61,807 bases of DNA from Patescibacteria group bacterium (GCA_040900165.1 JBBDZM010000009.1:18636-80442), one strand, 5' to 3'. Numbered from the stretch's first letter, positions 2,581 through 58,448 are shown. The notes: generated from the letters alone by a model not told the origin. Numbers and translations: made by a program.

Positions 2581-3294
2581 ATGGTAAGCCAAGCTAAAAT
2601 CCTGGGAGTAAATATCGATATCGTTACCTGGGCAGAGATTGTCCGGTTCTGCAAACAAGCCCTTGTCCAAGCGGCTCCACAGATGATTACAACCATTAAC
2701 GGGGAAATAATTCTTATCGCCACCAAAAACCCCTCGTATAAAAAAGTTCTTAATACGGCCAATTTGGCGATCGCCGATTCAACTAACGTCGTTTGGATGG
2801 GGCGACTGAAGGGATTTAAGTTTCCTTACCGCACCCCGGGCAGCGAGCTGTTTTGGGAGATCTGTGAGATCGCCGAAGATATGAAAAAGTCAGTCTACTT
2901 TTTGGGAGGGGCAGAGAATACCGCCCAGCTAACTGCCGAAAAGGTCCAAGAGCGATTCCCAGCACTAGAGATTGCTGGCTTTAGTAACGCCGACCCGTCG
3001 GAGCAGACGGCGCTAGAAGTCCGCAAGAAAAACCCGGATGTGGTGTTTGTGGCCTACGGCGCACCCGTGCAGGAGCTGTGGATTGCTCAAAACAAAGACA
3101 AAATTACTGCCAAGATAATGGTCGGAGTGGGGGGAACGTTCGATATGGTATCGGGCAAACTGCGCCGGGCGCCGGACTGGATGTTAAAAATGCACTTAGA
3201 GTGGCTCTGGCGGCTCTATCTCCAGCCAAAGCGAATCATTCGGATATTTAAAGCGGTGATAATCTTTCCAATCCGGGTGCTATTTAGCTCATAA
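2581..3294 (+). CDS. WecB/TagA/CpsF family glycosyltransferase
   Basis: ILGVNIDIVT... N-terminus, VGVGGTFD motif and a family-typical C-terminus (LEWLWRL..P.R). Confidence 0.85.
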   Translation: MVSQAKILGVNIDIVTWAEIVRFCKQALVQAAPQMITTINGEIILIATKNPSYKKVLNTANLAIADSTNVVWMGRLKGFKFPYRTPGSELFWEICEIAEDMKKSVYFLGGAENTAQLTAEKVQERFPALEIAGFSNADPSEQTALEVRKKNPDVVFVAYGAPVQELWIAQNKDKITAKIMVGVGGTFDMVSGKLRRAPDWMLKMHLEWLWRLYLQPKRIIRIFKAVIIFPIRVLFSS

Positions 3295-3307
3295 CTAGAA
3301 AAACTCC

Positions 3308-3480
3308 GAGCCAGGACCGAGCAAGCCTGCCCGGTCAGCGAGGAAGTTTTTCACCACCCGCCTGGGGCAGCGTGCGGGGGTGGGCCGCGCTCGCAACGCT
3401 AGCACTTGCTTAGCGGGCGAGAGTGCAGAGGGTAGGGGGCTGCTTCGCAACTAAGCCCCCTGTCCTCTGCAGAAATTGCG
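3308..3480 (+). repeat. Structured repeat element, copy A (possible ncRNA or 3' UTR element)
   Basis: The 73-nt core 3308-3380 is about 85 percent identical to the reverse complement of 24762-24833, including an identical 24-mer caccacccgcctggggcagcgtgc. A 16-bp stem 3425-3440/3455-3470 has two G-U pairs only on the plus strand. Both copies end in agaaattgc. Confidence 0.6.
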
Positions 3481-3499
3481 TTCTTTTGATAATGCGGAA

Positions 3500-3528
3500 T
3501 TGATAACTTCACATATTGATGTTATTAT
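3500..3528 (+). promoter_or_regulatory. Sigma70-like promoter upstream of nusA
   Basis: TTGATA (3500-3505), 17-nt spacer, TATTAT (3523-3528). Confidence 0.5.
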
Positions 3529-3538
3529 TACGATGTAG

Positions 3539-3564
3539 ACCAGGATTTAGTCCTGGTTGTTTTT
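3539..3564 (+). terminator. Intrinsic terminator/attenuator hairpin in the nusA leader
   Basis: accagga-tttag-tcctggt stem-loop followed by tgttttt, starting about 5 nt after the predicted transcription start. Confidence 0.5.
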
Positions 3565-3661: not shown

Positions 3662-4915
3662 ATGGCCATTTCACCATTTAGCGCCGCCCTAAACCAACTA
3701 GCCGACGAGCGAGGACTACCCCGTGAGATTATCGTGGAAGCGATTGAATCGGCCGTCGGTGCCGCTTATCGCAAAGACTACGGCAACCCCGACCAAGAGA
3801 TAATTTCGCGCTTAAACGATGAAAGCGGCCAATTCGATATCTTCCAGGTATTTGATGTTGTCAAGGAGGTGGAAAACGAGCACGCCCAGCTAACACTTAA
3901 GCAAGCCAAAGAAATGAAAAAAGGCGCAAAGCTCGAGGACAAAATCGAAATTGAGCTCGAGCCCCACACAGAATTTGGCCGTATTGCTGCCCAAACTGCC
4001 AAGCAGGTTATCTCTCAGCGCCTACGTGAGGCCGAGAAAGAAATACTTTATGCCGAGTACAAAGAAAAACAGGGCCAGCTAATTAACGGCTACGTCCAAC
4101 AGATCGAGGGACCAAACGTTATTATGAACATCGGTAAACTTAACGGCCTGATGATTGCCTCTGATCAAATTCCTAACCAACATTACTACGCTGGCCAGCG
4201 CTTAAAAATCCTGGTCTACAACGTCGAAGAAACCCCGCGCGGTCCCCGCGTTCTGGTAACCCGCTCCAGCCCCGACTTTATTAAAAAGTTATTTGAGTTG
4301 GAAGTTCCAGAAGTCGCCGCCGGCAACGTGGAAGTGAAAGTAATTGCCCGAGAAGCCGGAACCCGAACCAAAATGGCCGTTATCTCCAACCAACCCGGGC
4401 TCGACCCGGTCGGCTCATGTGTCGGTCAGCGCGGCAGCCGCGTTCAGGCCGTTATTAGCGAGATTGGCGATGAAAAAATCGATATTATCCCTTGGAAAGA
4501 AGACACCGAAGGATTCTTAATCGAAGCCCTTAAGCCAGCGTTAATCGAAAAAATCAAACTCTCTAAAAAAGAGCTGCGAGCAACTGTGACTGTTCCGGAA
4601 GATCAACTATCTCTAGCGATCGGTAAGAACGGCCAGAATGTTCGCTTGGCTAGCAAACTAATTGGCTGGGAAGTCGATATCGTCAAAACCGGCGAGGACA
4701 AGCGCCCGGAAAGAGCCGAGCGAGTAGAAACACCGGCACCAACCGAAACTCCAGCACCAGAAGTGAGCGAAAAAACCGCAGTTGTCGAACAAGTAGAAAC
4801 CGCCGAAATTGTCGAGACCGAACCGCCAATGCCAACGGACAAGGCGATCGATGCTCAGACTCCCGAAGACCAAGTCGCCGAGCAAGAGCAGGTGGCCGAC
4901 GAAGCCAGTAAGTAA
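3662..4915 (+). CDS. nusA: Transcription termination/antitermination factor NusA with an acidic C-terminal tail
   Basis: NusA N-domain, S1 and two KH segments (GLDPVGSCVGQRGSRVQ, LSLAIGKNGQNVRLASKL). Pro/Glu-rich tail. Confidence 0.95.
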   Translation: MAISPFSAALNQLADERGLPREIIVEAIESAVGAAYRKDYGNPDQEIISRLNDESGQFDIFQVFDVVKEVENEHAQLTLKQAKEMKKGAKLEDKIEIELEPHTEFGRIAAQTAKQVISQRLREAEKEILYAEYKEKQGQLINGYVQQIEGPNVIMNIGKLNGLMIASDQIPNQHYYAGQRLKILVYNVEETPRGPRVLVTRSSPDFIKKLFELEVPEVAAGNVEVKVIAREAGTRTKMAVISNQPGLDPVGSCVGQRGSRVQAVISEIGDEKIDIIPWKEDTEGFLIEALKPALIEKIKLSKKELRATVTVPEDQLSLAIGKNGQNVRLASKLIGWEVDIVKTGEDKRPERAERVETPAPTETPAPEVSEKTAVVEQVETAEIVETEPPMPTDKAIDAQTPEDQVAEQEQVADEASK

Positions 4916-5026: not shown

Positions 5027-7525
5027 ATGAAAGACAACAACCAGCCAGAGGGTCACATCAACCGCCTAAGCGAGACGGCTCAAAAGATTCTTAACGACGC
5101 CGAGCTCTACGCCAAGGCACTTAACTCCGGCTTTGACACGCATCACTTACTAATCGGCATCGCCAGCAACCCCGGGACACTAGCCTACGAGTGGCTAAGG
5201 GAGGTTTACGTGACGCCCGAGCGGCTTAGCTACGCCCTCCACTCCAACAACAGTTTGCTCAAAACGAAAGAAATAATCTCCGTCGATTTAAAGAGGGCTT
5301 TAATTACTGCCCATAAAAAGGCCGCCAAATACAACACCCCAACCGTTGATTCGGAGCACCTACTGCTATCGCTAGTCTGCGCCAAGGACTCCAACGCCTA
5401 CCAAATATTATTATTATTAGAAGTCGATCCCAAGCTCTTGCGCGATCAGATCGAGGAGTATTTCGACCAACTCCAAGACGGCGTTGATGACGACGATGAC
5501 GATATCGAACAGCCCAACAATTTTTCCCAACCAACCAGTCGAGAATTGCCCCAGTCGGCTCAGCAAACCCGAGCCAAATCAGCGATCGATTACTTTACCA
5601 CCGATTTAACCAAGCTCGCCAAAGACCATAAGCTCGATCCGGTCATTGGCCGCCAAAAAGAAATCACCCGAATGACCCAAATATTAATCCGCCGGGTCAA
5701 AAATAACCCGGTCCTAACAGGTGAGGCCGGTGTCGGCAAAACCGCCATCGTCGAAGGCCTGGCGCAAAAGATTGCTGCCGGCGATGTCCCTACCCAGCTG
5801 GCCGACAAACGGGTTTTAAGCTTGGATTTAGCGCTGTTGATATCGGGCACCACTTACCGCGGACAGTTTGAGGAACGAACCAAACGGCTCGTCGATGAAA
5901 TTATTAAATCCGGTAATGTCATCCTCTTTGTTGACGAGCTCCACACTATTGTCGGGGCTGGCGCCGCCGAAGGATCGATCGATTTAAGCAACATCCTAAA
6001 ACCAGCGCTGGCCAAAGGACAGTTGCGATTAATCGGTGCCACCACTAACGATGAGTATCGCAAATACATCGAAAAGGATCCGGCGCTGGAGCGCCGGTTG
6101 CAGAGAGTCAATGTCGACGAGCCCAGTGTTGAGGAAACGGTGGCAATTCTTGCCGGCTTAAAAACCGCTTACGAGAAACATCACAACGTCATAATTGAGC
6201 AGGAGGCGATCGCCGCCGCCGCCGATCTGTCTAAACGCTACATCTCCGACCGATTCTTACCCGATAAGGCCATTGACTTAATTGACGAAGCCGCCGCCGC
6301 TACCCAGCTAGAGGAAAAACAGCTTAAAACTCATAACCGATTGACTGATTTGGAGAAACGTCGTAAACGGGCTAAAGGCGAGCATCTCAAACACGCCGAG
6401 AACTTGGAGTACGAAAAGGCCGCCGAGTGGCGGGTGTTGGAGTTTAAATTAATCGATGAAATCGAGAAATTAAAAGCTAAGTTACCGAAACGCTCCAAAA
6501 CCCGCGCCATTACTCGCGAAGACATCGCCAAAATTGTCTCAATGTGGACCGGCGTGCCGGTCCAAGCCCTGGCTAAAACCGATAAAATTCGCCTGACCAA
6601 CCTGGAGAAAAACTTGTCCGAGTTTATCGTTGGCCAACAGCAGGCAATTAAAACCATCGCCTCGGCGATTCGCCGTTCCAGCACTGGCGTTGGCGACCCA
6701 AACCGACCGCTCGGATCGTTTATTTTCCTTGGCCCAACCGGTGTCGGTAAAACCGAGTTAGCTAAAGTGTTAGCCCGGGAAGTCTACGGCCGAGAGGAAG
6801 CGTTGATCAAGGTAGATATGAGTGAATTTATGGAAAAACATAATGTTTCACGTTTAGTCGGCGCTCCTCCCGGATATATCGGCTACGAAGACGCCGGCAA
6901 ACTAACCGAATCAATCCGTCGCCAACCCTATTCAGTGGTCTTACTTGACGAAATCGAAAAAGCCCACCCCGATGTCTTTAATATGCTCCTTCAGGTAATG
7001 GAGGACGGCTACTTGACCGACGCCAAAGGCCGAAAGGTCAACTTTAAAAACACCATCTTAATTATGACCTCCAATATTGGGATGAGCGAGCTCAATCGCC
7101 AAGCGGCGATTGGCTTTAAAACAATCGGCGATAAATCGACCGAACAGCGCTATGAAGAGATTAAGAGCAAGATTCAGGACGAACTCAAACAGCATTTCCG
7201 CCCGGAGTTTATGAATCGCTTAGATAAGACGATTATCTTCCGCCCGCTGGGCAAGCCGGAGGTCAAAGAAATTGTCCGCCGCCAAATCCAGCTCTTAAGC
7301 GACCGGCTGCTGCCGGAGGGAATTGAAATTCAGGTGGCGCCAGAGGCAGTCAGCTTTCTGGCCGAAAAGGGCTTCGACCCAGAGTTTGGCGCCCGGCCGG
7401 TCCGGCGAGTGATTACTGAATACATTGAAGACCCACTTTCCGAATTATTGCTGACCGGACGGCTGTCGAAATCCGCCCCCATACGGGTGTTGCGCAAAGG
7501 CGCCAAGCTAGCACTAATAAAATAG
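5027..7525 (+). CDS. clpC: ATP-dependent Clp protease ATP-binding subunit ClpC-type
   Basis: Clp_N repeats, two AAA modules ([16 protein letters not shown]) and a UVR-like EYEKAAEWR linker. Confidence 0.95.
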
Positions 7526-8544: not shown

Positions 8545-8575
8545 TTGACAAGTTTGGTATTTGTTCGGCTATGAT
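8545..8575 (+). promoter_or_regulatory. Promoter with an embedded putative LexA operator (GTTT-N7-GTTC)
   Basis: TTGACA 8545-8550, GTTTggtatttGTTC 8552-8566, TATGAT 8570-8575, ATG 6 nt further on (leaderless geometry). Confidence 0.55.
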
Positions 8576-9206: not shown

Positions 9207-9240
9207 TTGACTGTTCGGCTTTTGTTCGCCACTGTAGAGT
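9207..9240 (+). promoter_or_regulatory. Promoter with an embedded putative LexA operator (GTTC-N7-GTTC) upstream of dinB
   Basis: TTGACT 9207-9212 is followed directly by GTTCggcttttGTTC 9213-9227. Candidate -10 is TAGAGT at 9235-9240. Confidence 0.55.
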
Positions 9241-9393
9241 ATATGGAGGAGAAAGTGTTTTTTATGACATTTGCAGGCAATTTTGCATGGCTCGACGTAG
9301 TCGAAAAATTGCCGAAAGTTAAGGCCCGAGACACGCTGGGTCGAGCGGCCGGTCATAAAAAAGATTTTCTCCTCCATAACCAAGGCGTAACAA

Positions 9394-11892: not shown

Positions 11893-11921
11893 TTGACACG
11901 TTCGGTATTTGTTCGTAATCT
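11893..11921 (+). promoter_or_regulatory. lexA promoter with an embedded GTTC-N7-GTTC operator
   Basis: TTGACA 11893-11898, GTTCggtatttGTTC 11900-11914, TAATCT 11916-11921 (17-nt spacer), ATG 6 nt downstream. Confidence 0.65.
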
Positions 11922-18391: not shown

Positions 18392-19504
18392 GTGTGGAAT
18401 AAATTAAACATTTGGATTAAAACTCATAAAAAAGCGGTAATTATTGGCGTGCCGGTTATCTTAATAGTGTTATTTTCCGGGATTGTGTTGATGATTCGCT
18501 ACTTGAACAACTACCAGGATCCAGTGGTTATTACCCACCCTAATACCGAGGAGGAAAAACCGGTACTAGTGGCTAGCTTATTGAACGGGACGTTAGTTGA
18601 TCCGGCGACTGCTAATCGCCACGTTGTCGCCACAATGATTGAGAACTCCCAGGCGGCTCGACCACAGGTCGGCCTAACTAGCGCCGATGTTGTTTACGAA
18701 GCCGTTGCCGAGGGCGGAATTACCCGGTTTATGGCACTCTATCAAACCAAATACCCGGCCAAAGCTGGCCCGGTTCGATCGGCCCGAAGTAACTATATCG
18801 ACTGGCTAAGCGAGTTCGATGCGTTTTATATGCACGCTGGGGGGTCGCCAACGGCGCTAGGCCTAATTAATAGCTATCGGATAAAAGACTACCCCCACAG
18901 TAACGACGGCACCTACTGGCGTGAGCCGACTCCGGGCGTAGCCAGTGAGCATACGTTGTTTGCCAACGTTGCCCTGGTTTATAAAAATGGCGTCAACATA
19001 AAAAAGTGGCCAAAAACGTACAATTTCGATCCCTGGAAGTTTAAAGATCCCGAGCCGACAATAGAGTTGGGCTCAACGCTAACCATCAACTTTTCTTCTG
19101 CGCCATTTGCTGTTAAATGGACGTTTAGCAAAAAAACCAACACCTATAGTCGAGAGATGGCCGGTACCGCTCATAAAGATCGATTAACTGGCAAACAAAT
19201 TACTGCCAAGACAATAATTGTTATGACCGTCAAACGCTCGCCCAACCCACCGTTCGCCAATGGCAAACAATCAGAGTGGACAATGAAGACAATTGGTTCA
19301 GGTAATGCCTCGGTATTTATCGATGGCAAACAGATTAGGGGAACTTGGAAAAAACCATCAAGAAAAGAGCGGACCCGATTTTATGATTCGTCCGATCAAG
19401 AAATTACTCTCAATCGAGGCCAGATTTGGGTCGAGGTAATTCCCGAGACTGGTTCCTACAAATTCACCGCCGAAAAACCTCCAACTACTACCACTAGTAA
19501 CTAG
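18392..19504 (+). CDS. DUF3048-like secreted/membrane-anchored protein
   Basis: GTG start follows aggagg. N-terminal TM anchor. VATMIENSQAARPQVGLTSADVVYEAVAEGGITRFMALY is typical of DUF3048 (YerB-like). Confidence 0.7.
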   Translation: MWNKLNIWIKTHKKAVIIGVPVILIVLFSGIVLMIRYLNNYQDPVVITHPNTEEEKPVLVASLLNGTLVDPATANRHVVATMIENSQAARPQVGLTSADVVYEAVAEGGITRFMALYQTKYPAKAGPVRSARSNYIDWLSEFDAFYMHAGGSPTALGLINSYRIKDYPHSNDGTYWREPTPGVASEHTLFANVALVYKNGVNIKKWPKTYNFDPWKFKDPEPTIELGSTLTINFSSAPFAVKWTFSKKTNTYSREMAGTAHKDRLTGKQITAKTIIVMTVKRSPNPPFANGKQSEWTMKTIGSGNASVFIDGKQIRGTWKKPSRKERTRFYDSSDQEITLNRGQIWVEVIPETGSYKFTAEKPPTTTTSN

Positions 19505-19632
19505 AAAAAGTTGTCATAAAAGTGTGTCGTAGACATTTTTGCTTGGTTCGCCAACGGCGAAAAAATGTCGAGACCCAAGCGGTATGATTCGCTGGAGATC
19601 ATAACCGCGTCTTTTGTGGCAATTTTTTCTAG
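19501..19632 (+). other. 132-nt multi-helix structured element overlapping the DUF3048 stop codon
   Basis: 13-bp closing stem ctagaaaaagttg/caattttttctag with one G-U that pairs only on the plus strand. Internal hairpins gacatttt..ttcgcc-aac-ggcgaa..aaaatgtc and gcggtatgat..atcataaccgc. Confidence 0.5.
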
Positions 19633-19636
19633 TTAC

Positions 19637-23261: not shown

Positions 23262-24491
23262 ATGGATAGGGAAACATTAGACACTTTTGCAAATATTAAA
23301 GTTTGTGGTGTAGGCGGTTCCGGTGGGAACGCTATTGCCAGAATGATAGCCGCTCGCGTACGAGGGGTTGAGTTTATTGCGATCAATACTGATGCCCAGG
23401 CGCTAATGAATAACGCCGCGCCGGTTAAGGTGCAGATCGGTAAAGATACTACCCGCGGCCTTGGTGCCGGCGCCGACATTGAGGTTGGCCGTAAGAGTGC
23501 CGAAGAAAATAAAGATGAAATTTACGAGGTCCTGAAAGGGGCCGATATGGTTTTTGTAACTTTTGGCGCTGGTGGCGGTACCGGTACGGGCGCCGCACCA
23601 TTAGTTGCCCAAATCGCTCGGGAGCTGGGAGCCCTGACTGTTGGTGTCGTTACCAAACCGTTTAGCTTTGAGGGTTTGCGCCGCAAAAAGATGGCCGATA
23701 TCGGCATCGAGGAGCTGCGCGACAAAGTTGATACTTTAATTACAATCCCCAACGACCGGCTATTGCAGGTAATCGACAAAAAAACTTCTCTGCCCGATGC
23801 CTTTGGTATCGTTGACGATATTTTGCGCCAAGGCGTTCAAGGAATCTCCGACTTAATTGTGATCCCCGGCATTATTAACGTTGACTTTGCCGACGTCCGA
23901 ACAATTATGCAAGATGCTGGGTCGGCGCTGATGGGTATCGGCCGCGCCTCCGGTGAAAACCGGGCGATTGAGGCCGCCCGCCAAGCGATCGATTCACCGT
24001 TGCTGGAGCTATCAATCGACGGTGCCATGGGTATTCTTTACAACATCACTGGTGGGCCGGATATGACAATGTACGAAGTCGAAGAGGCCTCCAAGGCTAT
24101 TACCGAAGCGGCTCATCCAGAGGCCAATATTATCTTTGGCGCCATGGTAGATGATGCGATGAGCGGGGAGATTAAGATTACCGTTATTGCCACCGGTTTT
24201 GAGACCGAAACACCAAAGCCCCAAACCAAGCGTCGAGCTCAAGGAGAATCACTTGGCTACGGTTTCAATCAAGGCCAGAGTGAGCCGATTGGGTCGCCAT
24301 CCGTCTCAAATATTCCATTTTTTGGCTCCTCTCAACCAGCTAAACCAAGTTTCGGCGATGATTATGACTCCGACGGTAGGGAGCACCGCCGCGAACGACC
24401 AATCCCACCGAAAGAGGAAGAAACTAAAAAAGAAGACGACGACAAAGACGAGCTCGACGTCCCGGCGTTCATACGACGGAAGTTGCGTTAG
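23262..24491 (+). CDS. ftsZ: Cell division protein FtsZ
   Basis: [22 protein letters not shown] tubulin signature, C-terminal DVPAFIRRK peptide. Confidence 0.97.
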
Positions 24492-24561
24492 CAACTGTAG
24501 GAGTACGACCACAGGAAGATCCGTAGGAAATTACGCTAAATATTATCATTATATTGGGATT

Positions 24562-24834
24562 GGCAATTTCTCTTTTGTGAGGGTGAGGGCATACCCTCCG
24601 CTTCGCTCCGGTATAGCTCCCTCACTGACGTTCGGTCGCTATAGCAACTGGGACGTTGCTTAGTGTCCGTTTCTAGGACACTATCAGAGTTAGCACCTAC
24701 TGCGAGCAAGTTTCTACTTGCGAGAAGTGAAGCGACAGCGTAAACACCCTCACACTCCCTACCCCGGCACGCTGCCCCAGGCGGGTGGTGAAAATTAACT
24801 CGCTGACCTGGGAGGCGTCCTAGGTCATGGCTCA
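24562..24834 (-). repeat. Structured repeat element, copy B (inverted relative to copy A, with an extra multi-hairpin insert)
   Basis: The core 24762-24833 matches copy A in reverse complement. The outer stem is gtgagggtg/caccctcac. The internal array of short hairpins (24644-24659, 24663-24681, 24706-24721) is separated by ta/tata linkers and is absent from copy A. Confidence 0.6.
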
Positions 24835-24862
24835 TTAATTTTCGATTAATATGTAGGCATAT

Positions 24863-24958: not shown

Positions 24959-27900
24959 ATGGCAAAATCAAAGGATAGCGGTAGGAATATTTCGGACATT
25001 GCCTTAAAACCCGTTGAAATTTCCGTTAATTTACCCACTGATAGAAATGATAAATCATCAAAAAAGACCGGCCTAAAAGTATCTCGCCGTTTCACCAAGC
25101 CCGGTCAGGATGTGTTTGCTTCCGTGGAGTGGGATACTCGCGACTCAATTATCTCGGACGAAAAAGGTAATATTATTTCGCAAATCACCGGTATCGAAGT
25201 ACCAAAAACTTGGACCCAACTAGCCACCGATATTGTTTCCTATAAATATTTCCGCAAAGCCGGTCTGCCAACCAAAGAAGGCCGAGAAACATCCGTCAGA
25301 CAGCCAATTATTCGCATTAGTAAAACCATGGCCGACTTCGGGGAAAAGTTCGGTTACTTTGCCTCCAAAGCCGAGCGGGAGACCTTTGAGACCGAGTTGA
25401 TGTATATATTGCTTCACCAGCGCGCCGCCTTCAACTCGCCAGTTTGGTTTAACTGCGGCCTTTATCATCAATACGGCATTAAAGGTAGTGGGGGATCGTT
25501 CTACTGGAATTTTAAAGAAAATAAGGTTCTAGAGTCCGAATCTGCTTACCGCAACCCTCAATGTTCCGCTTGTTTTATTTTATCGGTCACCGATACCTTG
25601 CCAGGGATTTTTGAGTTAGTAAAAACCGAAGCCCACATCTTTAAATACGGCTCTGGCTCCGGCGCTAACTTTTCGCCGCTACGCAGTCGATACGAAAAAC
25701 TCTCGGGCGGTGGTTACTCCAGTGGGCTATTAAGCTTCTTGCGAGTATTCGATCGGGCCGCCGGTGCTACTAAATCTGGTGGAACAACCAGGCGGGCCGC
25801 TAAAATGGTCGTTGTCGACATTGAGCACCCAGAGATTGAAGACTTTATTGATTGGAAAGTTAACGAAGAGAAAAAAGCCCTGGCCTTAATCGAAGCTGGC
25901 TATGAATCGGACTTTAACGGCGATGCTTACAGTACGGTTTCCGGTCAAAATGCCAACAACTCCGTTCGGGTAACCGACGACTTTATGAAAGCGGTGGAGA
26001 ACGACGGCGAGTGGCAGACCCGTTTTGCCACCAGCGGCGAGCCATACAAGACATACAAAGCCCGGGATTTAATGGATAAAATTGCCCAGGCCGCTTGGAA
26101 ATGCGCCGACCCAGGGCTGCAGTTTGATACCACTATCAACGACTGGCACACTAGTCCAAATACCGATCGAATCTACGCCTCCAACCCTTGCTCGGAGTAT
26201 ATGTTTCTCAACGACTCGGCCTGTAACTTGGCGTCGATCAATTTGGCGAAATTTATTAAGGACGACGGCTCATTTGATATCGCTGGCTATCGCCACGCCT
26301 GCCGGATAATGTTTATTGCCCAGGAAATTGCCGTCGATCTATCCAGCTACCCAACTAATGTAATCGCCAAAAATAGCCACGATTACCGACCGCTTGGATT
26401 GGGTTACGCTAACCTAGGGACGCTGTTAATGCTCCAGGGCGTTCCTTATGACTCGCCAGAGGGCTTTGCCATCGGTGGGGCCTTAACGGCCATTATGACT
26501 GGTCACGCCTATAAAACTTCTGCCGAGATGGCCGCCGTTAAGGGGCCCTTTGAAGGATTCGCTAAAAATCGAGCACCGATGCTTAATGTGATGCGCAAAC
26601 ACCGCTCGGCTGCTTACCGAATTAGCGAAAAGCACTGTCCCACCGACATCTTAGATGCCGCTCACCAGGACTGGGACGAAGCGGTGGCACTGGGAGAACA
26701 GTTTGGCTATCGCAATAGCCAGGCAACGGTGATTGCTCCAACCGGCACGATTGGCCTACTAATGGACTGCGACACGACTGGTGTCGAGCCGGACTTTGCC
26801 CTGGTTAAATTTAAAAAATTAGCTGGTGGTGGATCGATGAAAATCGTTAACAACGCCGTACCAAAAGCACTGGAGAATCTTGGGTACAGCCCATTAGAAC
26901 AACAGGCGATTATCGATTACGCCATCGGTACCGGTACGCTCAACGGCTCAACACCAATTAACGCCGAGAGTTTAAAGGATAAGGGATTAACCCAAGAGGA
27001 GATCGCCAAGCTCGAGAAAACCCTGCCAACAATGTTCGATATCAACTACGCCTTCAATCGAACGGTAATCGACAGTAATCTTTTTGAGAGATTGGGGGTT
27101 ACCAGTGAACAAGAAAACAAGCCGACGTTCTCGCTCCTAAAAAAACTCGGTTTCAGCCAGACAGATATCAATCAAAGCAACGAGATAATCTGTGGCACCC
27201 AAATGCTGGAGGGCGCACCGCATCTCAAAGAAGAACACTACCCAGTCTTTGACTGCGCCAATCGCTGCGGGCCAAACGGCAAGCGTTTTATCCGACCAAT
27301 GGGACACGTCCAGATGATGGCGGCCGTTCAGCCGTTTATTTCTGGTGCAATCTCCAAAACTATTAATATGCCTAACGAGGCAACAGTTGAGGATGTTAAG
27401 GAAGTTTACATTGAGTCATGGAAGCTTGGTATTAAGGCATTAGCTTTGTATCGAGACGGCTCAAAATCTAGCCAGCCACTCAATACCAAGCGCCAAGACG
27501 AAGCAGACGAGCTGGAGGTTAAAAAAGAACAAGTGATCGTCTACAAGCCTCGCCGGCGTCGTCTTAACGACGAGCGCCAAGCACTCACTCATAAATTCAG
27601 TATCGCTGGCCACGAGGGCTATATTACCACCGGTCTGTACGACGACGGGATGCCCGGAGAGATATTCATTACCATGGCCAAGCAAGGGAGCGTTATCTCC
27701 GGCTTAATGGATGCTTTCGCTACCTCGATATCGATTTCTCTCCAATACGGTGTACCGCTCAGTGTGGTTGTTAGAAAATTTGCCAATAGCCGCTTTGAGC
27801 CGTATGGCTTTACCTCCAACCCACAGATTAGGATTGCTAAGTCGATCGTTGATTACCTAGCTCGCTACCTGGGGCTAAAATTCCTATCGCCGGGGGAACT

Positions 27901-28171
27901 CCAAGATATCGGTATCAAATCCGACAGCCAAGCTGCTTCAAGCCAAGCGCCGTTAGAACTCGAGGTTGGTAGCCAGGGGCAATCGGTCCCGATTACCATC
28001 AATGAGAACACTGATAAGACTGAAGATAATACCGACACTGACATCACCCAAGATCAGCCCATCGTCGCCTCTGATGCGCCGCCCTGCCCAACCTGCGGAT
28101 CGATGACCACCAAAACCGGCACTTGCTACACCTGCTTGTCGTGCGGCTCCACCACCGGCGGCTGCAGCTAG
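24959..28171 (+). CDS. nrdJ: Adenosylcobalamin-dependent (class II) ribonucleotide reductase
   Basis: [32 protein letters not shown], C-terminal CPTCGS...[15 protein letters not shown] zinc ribbon and redox tail. Confidence 0.93.
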   Translation: [1070 protein letters not shown]

Positions 28172-28173
28172 TA

Positions 28174-28737
28174 ATGCCTATTTACACAAAGAAGGGGGAC
28201 CGGGGTGAAACCGGTCTTCCTGGCAAAAGACGTCTATCCAAGACGGACCAGCTTTTTGAAGTCTTGGGAAACTTAGATCAAACCAGCGCTTCGATTGGTT
28301 TAGCGCTATCGTACACTGAGAAAAAGGAAAGTGAGTTGATAGCGTTATTGAAATCTGTCCAATCAGACTTTTTGGGGATTGGCGCCTACTTGGCCTCAGA
28401 AAACCACAGCCAGAGGGCAATATTAAATCACCTACCAAAACAAATTACGTTATTTGAGAAAACCATCGACAAACTAGAAAACGAGACAGGTTCGTTGCAG
28501 AATTTTATCCTGCCTGGCGGAGGAAACGCCGGTTCGGCTCTTCACTTAGCCCGAACAATCGCTCGAAAAACCGAACGGGAATTTCATAATTTAACTGGAG
28601 TAAAGTCGCCTGAAATCAGCCAGTACCTCAACCGATTGTCAGACTTACTTTTCCAAATAGCCCGAGCGATTAACCATCGACAGGGTAATGTTGAGGATAA
28701 TTGGAAGTATCTACAAAACAAAGCTGATAATCGTTGA
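28174..28737 (+). CDS. PduO-type ATP:cob(I)alamin adenosyltransferase
   Basis: MPIYTKKGDRGETGL start motif, FILPGGGNAGSALHLARTIARKTER. ATG lies 2 nt after the nrdJ stop. Confidence 0.88.
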   Translation: MPIYTKKGDRGETGLPGKRRLSKTDQLFEVLGNLDQTSASIGLALSYTEKKESELIALLKSVQSDFLGIGAYLASENHSQRAILNHLPKQITLFEKTIDKLENETGSLQNFILPGGGNAGSALHLARTIARKTEREFHNLTGVKSPEISQYLNRLSDLLFQIARAINHRQGNVEDNWKYLQNKADNR

Positions 28738-48935: not shown

Positions 48936-49844
48936 TTACTTGGCTTTAATTAAATCCAGGGAAACTGATGGCGCCATGCTGGCGGTGAGATAAGCAGCAG
49001 CGACTCGTGAGAGTTGAAAACCAGAGAGAATGGCGTTGATGTTTTCGGCCAATTTCTGGCTGTCCCACGAGCATTTACCAACAAGCTGGTGGATATTATT
49101 GGCGGCATCGATCCGATACTCAATTTTACCGGAGTTAATCTCCGCAATCGCCTTTTTAGGATCATCGGTAACGGTTCCGGACTTTGGGTCGGGCATTAAG
49201 CCACGTGGCCCTAAAATCTTGGCAATTTTGCCAACTTTCGGCATCAATTCGGGTGTGGCAATGGCAATATCAAAGTCGATCTTTTTGGTTTTGGCAATCT
49301 GTTCAATTTTCGCCTCGTCCAAAACGATAATGTTTTTGATTTTCCCGGAGCCGTGCGGCAGGTGAAAAATGCCTTTGGTTGATTCGTTTCCAGATTTGGC
49401 TTTCTTTTTAGTTAATTTTAAATGTAGCTCCACCGAGCCATCAAATCTGGAGTAAGAAGCGGCTTTGACCAGTTCAATTGCTTCGTTAACGCTGTAGAGT
49501 TTGCCTTTTTCAATCTGCTCGCTGGCTTTAATGTGCTTCGGCGAGCGTTTTGATTTTGGCTGGGGTTTTTCTTTTTTTACGGCATTTTTTACCGGTTTGA
49601 CGCCTTTGGGAATGTCTTGATTAAGAGCTTGAGCAGACTCGTTGTCTTCGTGGATGGCGGCCACTTCGGCTGGTATTACTGTGTCGGCATCGGCGGCCTG
49701 TTCGGCAATTAGGCCTTTTTCGGCTTGCTCGTCGAGGTTAATCTCGGCCTCAACAGCGTTGTCGGGTTCGTTTACTAATACCTCCGCTTCGTTTTTAGCG
49801 GCTTTTTCGTCGGCAACTGGATTATTTTTTAATTTCTTTGGCAT
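48936..49844 (-). CDS. rplA: 50S ribosomal protein L1 with an acidic N-terminal extension of about 95 aa
   Basis: The canonical L1 core begins near KSKRSPKHIKASEQIEKGKLYSVNEAIELVK and includes HLPHGSGK and GPRGLMP. There is no in-frame ATG, GTG or TTG near the canonical start, and the frame stays open to ATG 49844. Confidence 0.85.
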   Translation of the reverse strand: MPKKLKNNPVADEKAAKNEAEVLVNEPDNAVEAEINLDEQAEKGLIAEQAADADTVIPAEVAAIHEDNESAQALNQDIPKGVKPVKNAVKKEKPQPKSKRSPKHIKASEQIEKGKLYSVNEAIELVKAASYSRFDGSVELHLKLTKKKAKSGNESTKGIFHLPHGSGKIKNIIVLDEAKIEQIAKTKKIDFDIAIATPELMPKVGKIAKILGPRGLMPDPKSGTVTDDPKKAIAEINSGKIEYRIDAANNIHQLVGKCSWDSQKLAENINAILSGFQLSRVAAAYLTASMAPSVSLDLIKAK

Positions 49845-50406
49845 TGAAAGTGGTTGACTCAATTGTTCCTTTGTCTAACGATTTTAACAGATAGGAAGAG
49901 GCTTGGTCAATGATAGTTGCTAGCTCATCTTGCTCGGCATCGGTAAACGGCGATAAGACAAATCGGGCAAGATCGAATCCAACGTATTTGGGCTTGCCGA
50001 TCCCCACTCGCATCCGCCAGTATTTATTGCCAATAGCTTTGTCGATCGATTTAATGCCGTTGTGCCCAGCCGAAGTGCCAGCGTATTTAACCCGGATTTC
50101 ACCGAATGGGATCTCGGTGTCGTCGTGGATTATCCAGAGGTCTTTGGTGTCGGCATCGCGGTAAAAATCAAATACTTGGCGAATCGCATCGCCGGAGTTG
50201 TTCATATAGCCCAGCGGCAATGTTAGTACCACCTCGTCGTCCTTGCGTTTAGTTTTGAAATACATATTGGCCCGATACGTGCTGGCGTCTTCTAGAAAAT
50301 TGAGCCCCAATTTATTGGCTAAATCGATAACGATCCGATACCCGATATTGTGTCGGGTATTTTTATACTCTTCGGTCGGGTTGCCTAAACCGGCGATAAC
50401 TAACAT
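49822..50406 (-). CDS. pth: Peptidyl-tRNA hydrolase
   Basis: GLGNPTEEYKNTRHNIG, GHNGIKS. Confidence 0.93.
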   Translation of the reverse strand: MLVIAGLGNPTEEYKNTRHNIGYRIVIDLANKLGLNFLEDASTYRANMYFKTKRKDDEVVLTLPLGYMNNSGDAIRQVFDFYRDADTKDLWIIHDDTEIPFGEIRVKYAGTSAGHNGIKSIDKAIGNKYWRMRVGIGKPKYVGFDLARFVLSPFTDAEQDELATIIDQASSYLLKSLDKGTIESTTFNAKEIKK

Positions 50407-52079: not shown

Positions 52080-52134
52080 TTGGGTAACAAAAAAGACCCC
52101 GTTTTCACGAGGTCTAATTTGTTTGTTTGTTTTT
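52080..52134 (-). repeat. 55-bp perfect direct repeat, copy 1, containing a minus-strand intrinsic terminator
   Basis: Identical to 52720-52774. On the minus strand it reads agacctcg-tgaaaa-cggggtct followed by tttttgtt. Confidence 0.85.
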
Positions 52135-52165
52135 TAGACAACAACACCACCACCCCCTTAAAACA

Positions 52166-52193
52166 CAGACTATCTGATATATCAGATAGTCTG
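52166..52193. promoter_or_regulatory. Perfect 28-bp palindrome sharing the ATCTGATATATCAGAT motif with the XRE gene upstream region
   Basis: cagactatctgata|tatcagatagtctg, 5 nt beyond the XRE stop codon. Confidence 0.6.
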
Positions 52194-52197
52194 CCTA

Positions 52198-52554
52198 TCA
52201 ATCTTTGACAAGTTTTTTGTCTGATATTCTCAGTATCAACTCCACCCCAATCGCCCGGCAGTAGCGATCAATAAATTTCAGTGTCGGATTGTCTCTCCCC
52301 GTCTCGAAATAAGATATGTAGGACTGGCTGGTCCGCAATTTCTTTGCAACAGCTTGTTGGGTTAGGCGCTTGCTTCGCCTACGCGACACCAAATAGGTTA
52401 TGTACTCGTCTGGTTTGGGATTGATTGATTTGGGTTTTGGACGAGATGGGCTTTTCTCACCCTTCATTCGCTTAGCTCTGGCACTACTGTAATATTTCTT
52501 CGATCCTAAATGAAATAATTGACTAAGCTCGCTTTCACCCGACGTTTCTGTCAT
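52198..52554 (-). CDS. XRE-family helix-turn-helix transcriptional regulator with a Lys/Pro-rich N-terminal extension
   Basis: LTQQAVAKKLRTSQSYISYFETGRDNPTLKFIDRYCRAIG matches the HTH_3 pattern. Confidence 0.8.
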   Translation of the reverse strand: MTETSGESELSQLFHLGSKKYYSSARAKRMKGEKSPSRPKPKSINPKPDEYITYLVSRRRSKRLTQQAVAKKLRTSQSYISYFETGRDNPTLKFIDRYCRAIGVELILRISDKKLVKD

Positions 52555-52633
52555 CGATTTTTACCTGATTTCTAACATTACATTCGTTATTAATTGTAAT
52601 TACTAAATATTTATTTGAAATATAATCTCTTTT

Positions 52634-52666
52634 ATCTGATATATAGTATATATGATATATCAGATA
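52634..52666. promoter_or_regulatory. Inverted repeat operator candidate upstream of the XRE gene
   Basis: tatctgatatat-gtatatatg-atatatcagata (12-bp arms, 9-nt spacer), 80-110 nt upstream of ATG 52554. Confidence 0.55.
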
Positions 52667-52719
52667 CTCTGAGGGGTAGACGGTGCGAATAATAAAATAA
52701 TTAATAACTAAATAATGAA

Positions 52720-52774
52720 TTGGGTAACAAAAAAGACCCCGTTTTCACGAGGTCTAATTTGTTTGTTTGTTTTT
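52720..52774 (-). repeat. 55-bp perfect direct repeat, copy 2, terminator of the Ala/Ser-rich gene
   Basis: Identical to 52080-52134. Overlaps the stop codon at 52773-52775 by 2 nt. Confidence 0.85.
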
Positions 52775-53327
52775 AGGCAAACAAAGCAGCTTCTTTACGA
52801 GCCAATACGTAGCGTCGGAAGGCAGCCGCAAAGGCTGTCATCGCGCCAGGCAGTAAAGCAACTTCGGCACCGGCTGCTGGCAAGCGGTTAGTCTTGCTAG
52901 TTTGGGCAACCGTTACGCAACTGGTCTTAGCGACGGCAGCTGCGCTGGAACTGGAACCAGCACTGGCACTAGCACCGGAAGCACTGGCGGCAGCTGCAGA
53001 TGCAGCGGCAGCGGAAGCACTTGGGCAAGTAACCTGTTTGGTAACAGTTTTTTCTGTCTTAACTGTCTTGCCGTCATTTTTGACGGTGGCAACAGCGACA
53101 GAGCTCGAACTAGAGCTCGAAGCGGCAGAGCTAGAAGCACCGTTACCAGAGCTGGCCGAAGCCGCACCGGAGGCACCACTAGCAGCAGCCGCACCGCCAG
53201 AGCCGCCAATAACGACAGCCGAGGTGGTTGAGCTTGTAGAGCTAGAGCTTGTTGACGCAGCCATTGCTGAACCGGCAAAACCGGCAGCCAAAACAACGCC
53301 AAACAGTGAAAGAATAATTTTATTCAT
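52773..53327 (-). CDS. Ala/Ser-rich low-complexity surface protein with an LPxxG-type sorting signal
   Basis: Signal peptide MNKIILSLFGVVLAAGFAGSAMA follows aaggag. About 120 aa of A/S/G repeats. C-terminal LPAAG, then the hydrophobic stretch AEVALLPGAMTAFAAAF, then RRYVLARKE. Confidence 0.7.
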   Translation of the reverse strand: MNKIILSLFGVVLAAGFAGSAMAASTSSSSTSSTTSAVVIGGSGGAAAASGASGAASASSGNGASSSAASSSSSSSVAVATVKNDGKTVKTEKTVTKQVTCPSASAAAASAAAASASGASASAGSSSSAAAVAKTSCVTVAQTSKTNRLPAAGAEVALLPGAMTAFAAAFRRYVLARKEAALFA

Positions 53328-55412: not shown

Positions 55413-55959
55413 AACTGTATCGCCTCTCGCATACTGACTTTTTCTTGTCAGTACCGTCTCAGCCAGGAAAAGGGAAGGAGGGAAATTGCCGTAGATAGCA
55501 AGCTATCAATAGTGGCAACTCTCCCTAATCCCAGCCGAGACGGTACTGACAAGTTACTCTCTCCAATTTGCCCGCAACAAATTCGGTAGAAAAAGTTGCG
55601 GGCAAGTTGGAGGGGGCGAACTCTTGCGAGCTCGCCCCTAGGTAGACATGACAAAAGATTGATGGAGGTGGGGGCACCTGGCCCACCACCTCCAGTTCGC
55701 GCGCTCTGGAATGAAGGAACACTAGGACAGGTTGACTACACCTGCAGTAGGCGCACCTACTTTCGTCCGTTCGATCCGCCAATGGCGGAGGTATTTCGAA
55801 TGACATTATCCCTTTGCCGTTGCAGCCCCATGGGTCTAGGAACGATGAGCGCGCTTAAAAAGCGTTTTGAGGTTACCCTCTAATCCATTAATAGCACTGC
55901 TACAAATGGGTTGGAAGGGGCGACGCGTTCGAAAATGCGTCGCCCGGGCTGTGTCCCCC
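55413..55959. other. 547-nt non-coding, hairpin-dense region
   Basis: 17-bp perfect inverted repeat 55444-55460/55537-55553. 18-bp stem 55561-55578/55595-55612. Stems at 55613-55638, 55664-55693, 55747-55760, 55776-55788 and 55918-55945. Only non-protein-like ORFs. Confidence 0.6.
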
Positions 55960-58266: not shown

Positions 58267-58448
58267 CTTGTTTCTTTGTATCTCAATTCCCCCCTTATAT
58301 AAAGCCTGGCGACGAAACATTATTTTTACGGTATCCGCAGGTGATTTTTGCATGGTCCGCGCTGATTAAATGGCGCGGAAAAATCACCGAGGATTAAAGC
58401 CCGAGACTCGCTGGGTCGAGAGGCTGTCCGAAAAAATAATGTTTCTAG

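What the first reader, a model, noticed from the sequence alone, without database searches (positions are those of the whole stretch)
3308..3480. Structured repeat family: copy A downstream of the TagA-family gene, inverted copy B at 24562-24834
The 73-nt core (3308-3380) recurs in reverse complement at 24762-24833, with an identical 24-mer caccacccgcctggggcagcgtgc.

The two copies differ by a compensatory double change in a 5-bp helix. Copy A has gaccG...Cggtc (3315-3319/3332-3336) and copy B has gaccT...Aggtc, which argues that the structure is under selection.

Copy A closes with a 16-bp stem (3425-3440/3455-3470). Its two tandem G-U pairs exist only on the plus strand and would be C-A on the other strand, which suggests an RNA transcribed in that orientation. 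Both copies end in agaaattgc.

Copy B carries about 100 extra nt of short hairpins between the conserved ends. I could not match the element to any riboswitch or housekeeping RNA I know (RNase P, SRP, tmRNA and 6S motifs were looked for by eye).
Basis: seen in the sequence. Interest (0 to 1): 0.65.

Follow-up and report, generated by a model that had tools for sequence, protein, structure and literature searches.

The report
Small mobile structured repeat in CPR bacterium
The two look-alike stretches are real copies of a small, hairpin-rich element that has inserted itself next to gene ends in one lineage of ultra-small (Patescibacteria) bacteria; its RNA-style fold is kept by matched base changes, it matches no catalogued RNA family, and only three copies could be found.

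Summary

**What is there**
- Copy A is 3295-3488 (+). Copy B is about 24547-24845 (-).
- They share a 5' domain of about 90 nt, including an exact 24-mer.
- Nearly all differences in that domain fall in helices and keep the pairing.

**Third copy**
- A covariance model built from A and B found copy C in a related genome (L149 6296-6461).
- With C, the 5' domain has 98% of cells paired and 6 pairs changed on both sides. Shifted-register controls give 25-57%.
- The long hairpin shared by A and C also covaries at its base.
- All three copies fold better on the named strand.

**Mobility**
- The host is a Berkelbacteria-like Patescibacterium.
- Every copy is an insertion absent from the same spacer in close relatives: tagA-nusA, ftsZ-RNR and RNR-cobA.
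- The two genomes carry copies at different loci, so the element moves.
- A and C carry ATAA at both junctions. Their reconstructed empty sites share TCATAATGC.

**Searches**
- Rfam 15, ARAGORN, plasmid and phage BLAST, and viral scans gave nothing.
- No transposase, reverse transcriptase or Cas gene was found among the window ORFs scanned.

**Best reading**
It is a new family of non-autonomous structured intergenic repeats. It is like BOX, REP or MITE elements, but has no terminal inverted repeats and is constrained at the RNA level. Function and mobilising enzyme are unknown.

The parts
3295..3488 (+). Copy A, whole element (194 nt), inserted directly after the tagA stop codon (TAA 3292-3294) and upstream of the nusA promoter (3500-3528)
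   Evidence: The tagA-nusA spacer is 367 nt here. It is 82-109 nt in four relatives, which lack the element. A sibling strain is identical. CM hit of 117.6 bits.
3291..3294 (+). Left junction repeat ATAA of copy A (overlaps the tagA stop codon). The right copy lies at 3489-3492.
   Evidence: Read. The same ATAA pair flanks copy C (L149 6292-6295 and 6462-6465). Reconstructed empty sites of A and C both read TCATAATGC. The length of the duplication is not established.
3489..3492 (+). Right junction repeat ATAA of copy A
   Evidence: It is followed by TGC, as in copy C.
3298..3352 (+). 5' domain of copy A. P1 is 3298-3307 with 3342-3352. A tandem G-A/G-A internal loop is 3308-3309 with 3340-3341. 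A 2-bp P1b is 3310-3311 with 3338-3339. P2 is 3315-3319 with 3332-3336. P2a is 3321-3323 with 3328-3330, with loop AGCC.
   Evidence: MFE fold. Covariation count on alignment A10: 98.2% paired, 6 pairs changed on both sides, slid controls 25-57%.
3352..3384 (+). Conserved C-rich/G-rich segment of copy A. It holds the exact 24-mer (3352-3375) and the tentative helix P3, CCACCC 3354-3359 with GGGUGG 3378-3383.
   Evidence: The 24-mer is exact in A and B. AGCGUGCGGGGGUGGG is also kept in copy C. P3 is possible in all three copies only with register shifts. RNAalifold does not support it cleanly.
3386..3423 (+). Extra hairpin H3 of copy A. It is absent from copy C. It resembles one hairpin of copy B (shared CTCGCAA...ACTTGCT).
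3424..3471 (+). P4, the long terminal hairpin of copy A: 18 bp (3424-3441 with 3454-3471) and a 12-nt loop GCUUCGCAACUA
   Evidence: The apical 32 nt is identical in copy C. The base of the stem covaries (A UGCAGA/UCUGCA versus C GCGA/UCGC). G-U and G-C exchange at two positions on the sense strand.
3472..3488 (+). 3' tail of copy A, GAAAUUGCGUUCUUUUG (contains the shared AGAAATTGC motif, 3469-3477)
   Evidence: A weak hairpin with the flanking AAUGC is not significant.
24547..24845 (-). Copy B, whole element (about 299 nt; ends less certain). It lies between ftsZ (stop at 24491) and the RNR promoter, antisense to both genes.
   Evidence: The ftsZ-RNR spacer is 467 nt here. It is 161-213 nt in four relatives, which lack the element. 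CM hit of 113.8 bits.
24757..24843 (-). 5' domain plus conserved segment of copy B. P1 is 24843-24834 with 24799-24790, followed by GAGCC at 24833-24829. The P2 strands are 24827-24822 (UGACCU) and 24809-24804 (AGGUCA). The exact 24-mer is 24790-24767.
24563..24756 (-). Variable 3' domain of copy B. A 10-bp closing stem (UGUGAGGGUG/CACCCUCACA) encloses about four hairpins. It is followed by AAAGAGAAAUUGC.

Best explanation
A and B, together with copy C in a related genome, belong to a small family of non-autonomous, structured, mobile intergenic elements of 166-300 nt. They sit in a Berkelbacteria-like Patescibacteria lineage.

**Shown**
1. Each copy is an insertion that is missing from the same spacer in close relatives. 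Two co-occurring genomes carry copies at different loci.
2. A and C sit within a few nt of a stop codon, in the sense orientation. They have ATAA at both junctions and the same reconstructed target, TCATAATGC.
3. The elements are modular:
   - a 5' three-helix domain (P1, tandem G-A loop, P1b, P2 with or without P2a);
   - a conserved C-rich/G-rich segment;
   - optional hairpins;
   - a long terminal hairpin or multi-hairpin domain;
   - a U-rich tail.
4. The helices are kept by compensatory changes. Wobble pairs and folding energy favour one strand.

**Inferred**
- The element is transcribed as part of host messages. A and C would be 3' extensions of tagA and RNR.
- Its fold acts at the RNA level, most likely as a stable 3'-end or processing module. 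That would make insertion tolerable or useful, as is thought for BOX, REP and ERIC repeats.
- It is moved in trans by an enzyme encoded elsewhere in the genome.
For: **Insertion polymorphism**
- tagA-nusA spacer: 367 nt here versus 82-109 nt in relatives.
- ftsZ-RNR spacer: 467 nt versus 161-213 nt.
- RNR-cobA spacer: 169 nt in L149 with copy C, versus 2-17 nt in the window, L147 and L150.
- L152 and L149 come from one genome. That genome has C but not A or B. The window has A and B but not C.
- Both hosts occur in run SRR27977658.
- A and C are about 90% identical over P3, P4 and the tail (read from the alignment). The host RNR and ftsZ genes are 75-81% identical at the nucleotide level.

**Structure**
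- CM hit to C: 39.9 bits, E about 1e-8.
- 98.2% of cells paired, 6 doubly changed pairs, at most 6 of 500 shuffles reaching any measure, slid registers 25-57%.
- P4 covaries and shows G-U/G-C swaps.
- Folding z-scores: -3.45, -5.29 and -4.74.

**Strand**
- Sense is more stable than antisense by 2.3, 8.5 and 13.7 kcal/mol.

**Context and analogy**
- Neighbouring genes are housekeeping. The three contexts are unrelated.
- Pneumococcal BOX repeats are modular and 67-637 bp long. They often supply the stop codon of the upstream gene, are co-transcribed, and can form spurious ORFs (PMC3049150).
- The left junction of copy A shares the 12-mer TAACTAGAAAAA with both termini of E2, another inserted element in the window that does have inverted repeats.
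Against: - Only three distinct copies are known, so the covariation statistics are weak in absolute terms. The alignment used was fitted to the model.
- No terminal inverted repeats were found, so the element fails the MITE definition.
- No mobilising enzyme was found.
- The ATAA duplication rests on two junction pairs in A+T-rich flanks.
- Copy B lies antisense to both neighbours. No convincing promoter precedes it, so co-transcription in the sense orientation is not explained for B.
- No stem is followed directly by a U tract. No transcript data exist. The proposed RNA role is an analogy, not a result.
The metagenome scan returned one chance match. True copy number and spread are therefore unknown.
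Confidence: 0.55

Rival explanations
1. It is a horizontally mobile gene for a free-standing small RNA, either trans-acting or protein-binding. The invariant single-stranded stretch (CACCACCCGCCUGGGGCAGCGUGC in A and B; AGCGUGCGGGGGUGGG in all three) would be its working surface.
For: - Loops, junctions and the 24-mer are invariant between A and B while the helices vary freely.
- Copy B is antisense to its neighbours, so it would need its own transcription.
- Strand asymmetry is present in all copies.
Against: - No consistent promoter precedes the copies and no terminator follows them.
- The left flanks differ in length and sequence.
- The 5' half of the 'invariant' stretch differs in copy C.
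- No partner protein gene lies nearby.
Confidence: 0.2
2. It is a DNA-level transposon remnant. This would be a MITE, or an element that works as single-stranded DNA (of the IS200/IS605, REP-RAYT or IS91 type). The hairpins would be recognition sites for a transposase, and the RNA fold would be incidental.
For: - Insertion polymorphism, with possible 4-bp ATAA duplications.
- The left end of copy A shares TAACTAGAAAAA with the inverted-repeat element E2.
- Single-strand transposases read one strand only, which could also give strand-specific wobble pairs.
Against: - No inverted-repeat pair spans the ends of A or B in the repeat scan. Reading the ends by eye shows none for any copy.
- The left and right subterminal hairpins are unrelated. 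IS200/IS605 ends carry similar hairpins at both ends (my own knowledge).
- Rfam's transposon-associated RNA models (IS605-orfB, HEARO) give no hit.
- No transposase gene was found among about 40 window ORFs scanned, including all of those flanking the copies.
- Covariation extends through a multi-helix domain far larger than any known transposase binding site.
Confidence: 0.15
3. It is a retro-mobile RNA, SINE-like. The element would spread through an RNA copy that a reverse transcriptase encoded elsewhere copies into A+T-rich targets. Selection on mobility would then maintain the RNA fold.
For: - RNA-type covariation is maintained across copies that sit at unrelated loci.
- There are no inverted repeats.
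- There are short direct repeats at the junctions and ragged 5' junctions: 3 nt before P1 in A and 18 nt in C.
Against: - No reverse transcriptase was found among the window ORFs or fetched-locus genes examined.
- No such element class is known in bacteria (my own knowledge).
- There is no A-rich 3' tail.
- Three copies cannot separate this reading from host-level selection.
Confidence: 0.07
4. It is a cis-regulatory leader or riboswitch for the downstream gene (nusA, RNR or cobA).
For: It is structured and intergenic. Copy A lies upstream of nusA and copy C abuts the cobA start codon.
Against: - Relatives with the same genes lack it.
- The three downstream genes are unrelated.
- Copy B is antisense to RNR.
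- Copy A lies upstream of, not within, the nusA transcription unit. The promoter is at 3500-3528.
- No Rfam hit.
Confidence: 0.02
5. It is a small protein-coding gene. Copy B carries a 99-codon ORF, 24536-24835 (-).
For: The ORF spans the whole of copy B and starts at an ATG.
Against: - The frame is not kept. A and B differ by a 1-nt indel inside the domain, and C differs by a 7-nt deletion.
- Copy A has stops in that frame.
- Substitutions are paired in helices rather than at third codon positions.
- A six-frame chimeric query found nothing at E<=10 among 5.8 billion proteins.
- Large BOX repeats make similar spurious ORFs.
Confidence: 0.01

Closest known systems
BOX elements of Streptococcus pneumoniae (boxA-boxB(n)-boxC small interspersed repeats; PMC3049150)
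   Same: - Modular, with variable middle modules and a wide size range.
- Highly base-paired and intergenic.
- Often placed at the extreme 3' end of a gene, so that the repeat meets or supplies the stop codon.
- Co-transcribed with host genes.
- Large copies create spurious ORFs.
- Regarded as non-autonomous mobile parasites.
   Different: - No sequence similarity.
- BOX is reported to have terminal inverted repeats and target duplications. None were found here.
- BOX has more than 100 copies per genome. Only 2 copies in 62 kb are seen here.
- The host phylum is different.
- The conserved module here is a three-helix domain with RNA-type covariation.
MITEs with TA or short target duplications (Correia elements, RUP, Nezha)
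   Same: Small, non-coding, dispersed insertions that are polymorphic between relatives, with A+T-rich targets and possible short duplications. The same window holds a true inverted-repeat element (E2, 19497-19636) that shares 12 nt with the left junction of copy A.
   Different: A, B and C have no terminal inverted repeats. Their structure consists of local helices rather than end-to-end pairing. A (62% G+C) and C (54%) are G+C-richer than their genomes (49% and 51%), whereas RUP and SPRITE are A+T-rich.
REP/BIME and ERIC repeats of enterobacteria
   Same: Extragenic, often just after stop codons, in either orientation. They are transcribed within messages, where their hairpins affect message stability or processing (my own knowledge).
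   Different: REP units are 20-40 nt palindromes with a GTAG head and are linked to RAYT transposases. ERIC is one long imperfect palindrome. Neither has a multi-domain fold or this sequence.
G+C-rich palindromic clusters of yeast mitochondrial DNA
   Same: Structured mobile inserts that are G+C-richer than the surrounding genome, with short target duplications at A+T-rich sites (my own knowledge; not tested here).
   Different: They are 30-60 bp, organellar and unrelated in sequence.

Membership tests
MITE | Terminal inverted repeats matching an autonomous IS | tested here: not met
   No inverted-repeat pair spans the ends of A or B in the repeat finder. The ends of A, B and C were compared by eye and show only A-rich/T-rich low-complexity resemblance.
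MITE | Target-site duplication | tested here: inconclusive
   ATAA is present at both junctions of A (3291-94, 3489-92) and of C (L149 6292-95, 6462-65). The reconstructed sites share TCATAATGC. Copy B is ambiguous. There are only two informative junction pairs.
MITE | Small, non-coding, several dispersed copies, presence/absence polymorphism | tested here: met
   166-300 nt. Three loci in two genomes. The sites are empty in relatives.
BOX-type modular interspersed repeat | Sequence homology to the boxA/boxB/boxC modules | not tested
   No BOX sequence or model was compared directly. Rfam and the plasmid and phage BLAST searches gave no hit of any kind. The resemblance is in architecture only.
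REP/BIME | 20-40 nt imperfect palindrome with a conserved GTAG head; RAYT gene in the genome | tested here: not met
   The element is 166-300 nt with several distinct helices and no GTAG-headed unit. The presence of RAYT cannot be tested without the whole genome.
IS200/IS605 ends, PATE, TnpB/IscB guide RNA | Similar subterminal hairpins at both ends; match to Rfam IS605-orfB or HEARO models; adjacent tnpB or iscB gene | tested here: not met
   The left hairpin (P2) and the right hairpin (P4) are unrelated. No Rfam match at E<=10. Neighbours are tagA/nusA, ftsZ/RNR and RNR/cobA.
Riboswitch or cis-regulatory leader | Conserved position upstream of orthologous genes | tested here: not met
   Absent from the orthologous spacers of 4-5 relatives at each locus.
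Intrinsic terminator | G+C-rich stem directly followed by a U tract | tested here: not met
   The terminator scan finds only the native hairpin at 3538-3558, outside the element. It finds none at copy B.
Housekeeping RNAs (tRNA, tmRNA, RNase P, SRP, 6S) and all Rfam 15 families | Match to the family model | tested here: not met
   ARAGORN finds 0 genes. cmscan at gathering threshold gives 0 hits in the window and in 61 kb of relatives. At E<=10 there is only noise, such as microRNA hairpin models on P4.
Retron or other RT-linked non-coding RNA | Reverse-transcriptase gene next to the RNA | tested here: not met
   No RT domain in any flanking gene.

The most novel reading that the evidence does not exclude
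The element is a self-propagating structured RNA gene. One form of this reading is a bacterial SINE-like retroposon, whose fold is selected because the RNA itself is the transposition intermediate. The other form is a mobile guide or ribozyme RNA serving an enzyme encoded elsewhere. In either form it is passing between co-occurring Patescibacteria and targeting the stop/start junction motif TCATAATGC.
Probability: 0.12. Interest if true: 0.8.

Novelty: new variant of a known kind. Interest (0 to 1): 0.45.

Why it matters
Patescibacteria have tiny, streamlined genomes. My two literature searches found no description of small interspersed repeats or lineage-specific structured RNAs in them.

This lineage has recently gained several small insertions at gene boundaries. 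One family keeps a multi-helix fold by compensatory change although it sits at unrelated loci. If the fold serves mobility, the element would be an unusual RNA-dependent mobile element. If it serves the host, it would be a portable module for message stability or processing.

Either way it is a clean candidate for a new RNA family, and it may serve as a marker of gene flow between co-occurring ultra-small bacteria. With only three copies, the case is promising rather than proven.

Tried and rejected
**Database searches that led nowhere**
1. Genome-collection scan with the 18-mer CACCCGCCTGGGGCAGCG gave 119 hits. 
2. Metagenome scan with AGCGAG-gap-CACCACCCGCCTGGGG gave one chance hit in a G+C-rich contig.
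3. Three viral-contig scans gave chance hits or nothing.
4. Translating all frames of A and B into one chimeric protein query, to catch spurious ORFs called over homologous elements, gave nothing at E<=10.
5. Plasmid and phage blastn found no match.
6. Further loci from the same or sibling genomes (L152-L155) held no more copies. Weak CM hits there lie inside dinB and topA coding sequence.
7. Two literature searches on Patescibacteria repeats and structured RNAs found nothing relevant.

**Structural ideas considered and dropped**
- A long-range P3 pairing as in the MFE of copy A: both A-to-B changes and three A-to-C changes break it. Only a 6-bp CCACCC/GGGUGG version with register shifts remains possible.
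- P5, a tail hairpin that uses the flank: not better than shuffles.
- A tRNA-like acceptor end (P1 followed by ACCA): copy C reads ACGA.
- A kink-turn at the tandem G-A loop: the bulge and the G-A pairs are in the wrong order.
- Group I, group II, HDV-like, hammerhead and twister ribozymes: no core motifs by eye and no Rfam hit.

**Other points**
- Logan contigs that break inside copy A break within the P4 inverted repeat. I read this as probably an assembler effect, not evidence of copy number.
- A relic of the tagA 3' end downstream of copy A: the similarity is too weak to claim.

Full report
**1. The observation**

Both stretches are present as described.
- The 24-mer CACCACCCGCCTGGGGCAGCGTGC occurs only at 3352-3375 (+) and 24767-24790 (-). 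It has no other match at up to three mismatches and none in 100 shuffles.
- The repeat finder reports a 37-nt pair at 95% (I1).
- The reported compensatory change is real: GACCG/CGGUC in A versus GACCU/AGGUC in B.
- So is the long stem of copy A, which I extend to 18 bp (3424-3441 with 3454-3471), with adjacent G-U and U-G pairs.
- Both copies carry AGAAATTGC near the 3' end.
- Both copies fold well below shuffled controls: A -92.9 kcal/mol (z -3.45), B -119.7 kcal/mol (z -5.29).

**2. Organism and setting**

The window comes from a Patescibacteria (CPR) genome close to Berkelbacteria.
- NusA and FtsZ homologues are named Patescibacteria or Berkelbacteria. An NCBI MAG, GCA_040881295.1, carries the same nusA locus.
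- Copy A lies between a WecG/TagA glycosyltransferase gene (2581-3294) and nusA (3662-4915), on their strand.
- Copy B lies between ftsZ (23262-24491) and a class II ribonucleotide reductase gene (24959-28171), on the opposite strand.
- Other window genes are housekeeping. They include mreB, a Clp ATPase, dinB, lexA, the CCA-adding enzyme, ftsA, secDF, a UvrD/AddA-like helicase-nuclease, tgt, ribosomal protein genes, cysS (identified) and topA.
- Among about 40 of the window's larger ORFs scanned, no transposase, reverse transcriptase, integrase or Cas domain was found.

**3. Not a catalogued RNA**
- Rfam 15 gives no gathering-level hit in the window or in 61 kb of related loci.
- At E<=10 the three copies give only noise, mainly microRNA hairpin models on the long stem.
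- ARAGORN finds no tRNA or tmRNA.
- Plasmid and phage collections hold nothing similar.

**4. Every copy is an insertion**

| Spacer | With element | Relatives without it |
|---|---|---|
| tagA-nusA (copy A) | 367 nt, window | 82-109 nt in four relatives (NusA 78-79% identical in the three listed) |
| ftsZ-RNR (copy B) | 467 nt, window | 161-213 nt in four relatives (87-88% FtsZ identity) |
| RNR-cobA (copy C) | 169 nt, L149 | 2-17 nt in window, L147, L150 |

- At tagA-nusA the relatives keep only the nusA promoter and a small conserved hairpin.
- A sibling strain carries an identical copy A.

**5. A third copy**

Collection scans with short exact patterns failed (see section 12).
- It found one strong new hit: L149 6309-6397, 39.9 bits, E about 1e-8.
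- L149 belongs to GCA_040881265.1. Its FtsZ is 87% identical to the window's.
- Copy C (6296-6461, 166 nt) lies between the RNR stop codon and the start codon of a PduO-type adenosyltransferase gene (called cobA here).
- That site is empty in the window (TAG TA ATG at 28169-28176), in L147 and in L150.
- The same genome lacks copy A (L152, 109-nt spacer) and copy B.
- So two related genomes carry the family at different loci.
- Both organisms occur in the same sequencing run, SRR27977658.
- A and C are about 90% identical over P3, P4 and the tail (read from the alignment). The host ftsZ and RNR genes are 81% and 75% identical.
- This points to recent movement or exchange, to strong constraint, or to both.

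**6. Architecture**

Copy C is the minimal version.
- P1 has 10-11 bp. Its outer part is GAAAA/UUUUC and its inner part is free to vary.
- A 2x2 internal loop, GA over GA, follows.
- P1b is a 2-bp helix.
- P2 is GACC/GGUC. A and B add a 3-bp extension (P2a) capped by AGCC or CGCC.
- A conserved stretch ends in AGCGUGCGGGGGUGGG.
- P4 is a long hairpin.
- The tail is U-rich.

Copy A adds one hairpin (3386-3423) before P4. In copy B, a 10-bp stem enclosing about four hairpins takes the place of P4.

The family is mosaic. A shares its 5' domain with B, and its P4 and tail with C.

**7. Covariation**

On the model-derived alignment of the three copies:
- 98.2% of cells form standard pairs.
- 6 of 20 pairs change on both sides.
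- At most 6 of 500 shuffles reach any measure.
- Sliding the 3' partners by 1-3 columns drops pairing to 25-57%.

Between A and B, almost every difference in the 55-nt 5' domain is structure-preserving. There are six double changes, two one-sided compatible changes, one loop change and one bulge.

P4 of A and C has an identical 32-nt apex. Its base changes A-U to C-G and C-G to G-C, and G-U and G-C exchange at two positions.

Caveats: there are only three sequences, and the alignment leans towards the model.

The helix P3 suggested by single-sequence folding is not supported as drawn. Only a 6-bp CCACCC/GGGUGG pairing with register shifts remains possible.

**8. Strand**
- The named strand folds better than its complement in all copies: -92.9 versus -90.6, -119.7 versus -111.2, and -76.4 versus -62.7 kcal/mol.
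- In the supported helices I count about seven G-U pairs on the sense strand. One C-A pair would be a G-U pair on the other strand.
- This favours an RNA of the named orientation, or a single DNA strand of that orientation.

**9. Junctions**
- A and C each have ATAA on both sides. Removing the element and one ATAA gives AGC TCA TAA TGC GGA for A and TGT TCA TAA TGC CAA for C. These share the nine bases TCATAATGC.
- That 9-mer has no exact unoccupied occurrence in the window.
- In C the reconstruction gives a TAATG stop/start overlap.
- This suggests a preferred target and a 4-bp duplication, but two junction pairs in A+T-rich sequence cannot settle it.
- An alternative placement of C's left end, 18 nt further in, is possible.
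- B's junctions are ambiguous.
- No terminal inverted repeats were found.
- The left junction of copy A, TAACTAGAAAAA, is identical to both termini of another inserted element (E2, 19497-19636). E2 has 26-nt inverted repeats and is absent from L147. The 12-mer occurs nowhere else in the window.
- A shared mobilising system is therefore conceivable but unproven.

**10. Mechanism**

Shown:
- a mobile, non-coding, modular element;
- helices conserved by compensation;
- a strand bias.

Inferred:
- A and C, sitting in the sense orientation within a few bases of a stop codon, would be transcribed as 3' extensions of tagA and RNR.
- A compact fold ending in an 18-bp hairpin could block 3' exonucleases or provide a processing site.
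- This is how BOX, REP and ERIC repeats are thought to act. BOX repeats show the same habits of meeting stop codons, modular size variation and spurious ORFs (PMC3049150).

Copy B does not fit co-transcription. No promoter or terminator signal belongs consistently to the element. The enzyme that moves it is unknown.

Rival readings are a mobile small-RNA gene, a DNA-level transposon end, a retro-mobile RNA, a regulatory leader and a coding gene. They are weighed in their own entries. The last two are contradicted by the data.

**11. Comparison and novelty**

The element works most like the small interspersed structured repeats of other bacteria. It fails the membership tests for these classes:
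- MITEs (no inverted repeats);
- REP (wrong unit);
- IS200/IS605 ends or guide RNAs (unrelated end hairpins, no model match, no nuclease gene);
- riboswitches (not orthologous);
- terminators (no U tract).

I file it as a new variant of a known kind: a repeat that lacks inverted repeats, is constrained at the RNA level, and sits in a phylum for which my literature searches found no such elements described.

**12. What failed**
- The metagenome scan gave one chance hit.
- Viral scans gave nothing real.
- A six-frame protein query gave nothing.
- Extra loci from sibling strains held no further copy.

Copy number and spread are therefore unknown.

**13. Verdict**

This is a real, non-chance, structured repeat family with covariation support and clear mobility. 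It is unknown to Rfam. It has three copies, no transcript data and no known partner enzyme.

Interest is moderate (0.45). The most novel reading, an RNA-dependent mobile element or mobile functional RNA, remains open at about 12%.

Noticed in passing
window 24471-24539: The ftsZ 3' end is duplicated. A 48-nt in-frame insert (24471-24518) begins with a synonymously recoded copy of the last six codons plus stop (ATACGACGGAAGTTGCGTTAG = IRRKLR*). The native end follows as an in-frame relic (24519-24539, ATCCGTAGGAAATTACGCTAA). The relic is 21/21 identical to the functional ftsZ end of relative L149. Copy B's right end lies 7 nt past the relic's stop codon. No explanation was found.
   Followed up: partly
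window 19497-19636: E2 is a 140-nt element with 26-nt terminal inverted repeats (GTAACTAGAAAAAGTTGTCATAAAAG). It is inserted at the stop codon of the DUF3048 gene and supplies the new stop. It is absent from relative L147, where the gene is followed directly by the terminator (I6, 52, 55). Its termini share TAACTAGAAAAA with copy A's left junction.
   Followed up: partly
window 9242-9378 and 58340-58445: E1 is 137 nt with 27-nt inverted repeats. It lies between an SOS-box-like site and dinB. Its core (9303-9368) is 76% identical to 58378-58443 in the leader of cysS (56932-58353, -). E1, E2 and this leader segment are related (D3/I5, 51, 53, 62). By eye, a similar motif in the opposite orientation lies upstream of dinB in relative L152. 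This is a second structured repeat family, with no Rfam match.
   Followed up: partly
window 8552-8567, 9213-9228, 11900-11915: The 16-mer GTTYGGNWTTTGTTCG occurs three times (0.05 expected), each just after a TTGAC-type -35 box. One copy is upstream of lexA (11928) and one upstream of dinB. It is a candidate LexA operator for this lineage (D10, 51, 96).
   Followed up: partly
window 52080-52784: There are two 65-nt direct repeats (94% identical) that contain terminator-like hairpins, with palindromes at 52166-52200 and 52637-52671 between them (D1, I3, D11). By my coordinate mapping, the NCBI contig of the same MAG ends near window position 53.1 kb. This suggests a repeat-induced assembly break.
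   Followed up: no
window 55444-55553: A 32-nt inverted repeat (84% complementary) with a 46-nt spacer lies in an intergenic region next to genes without Pfam hits (I4).
   Followed up: no
L121 and L122 (Logan contigs), equivalent to window 3430: Two independent Logan assemblies of the nusA locus both begin inside the 5' arm of copy A's long hairpin. This looks like an assembler break at the inverted repeat rather than biological variation.
   Followed up: partly
window 48936-49862: The ribosomal protein L1 ORF is 308 aa as listed from its TTG start, and the Pfam L1 match is split into two stretches. It looks longer than a typical L1, so there may be an insertion or a wrongly chosen start.
   Followed up: no
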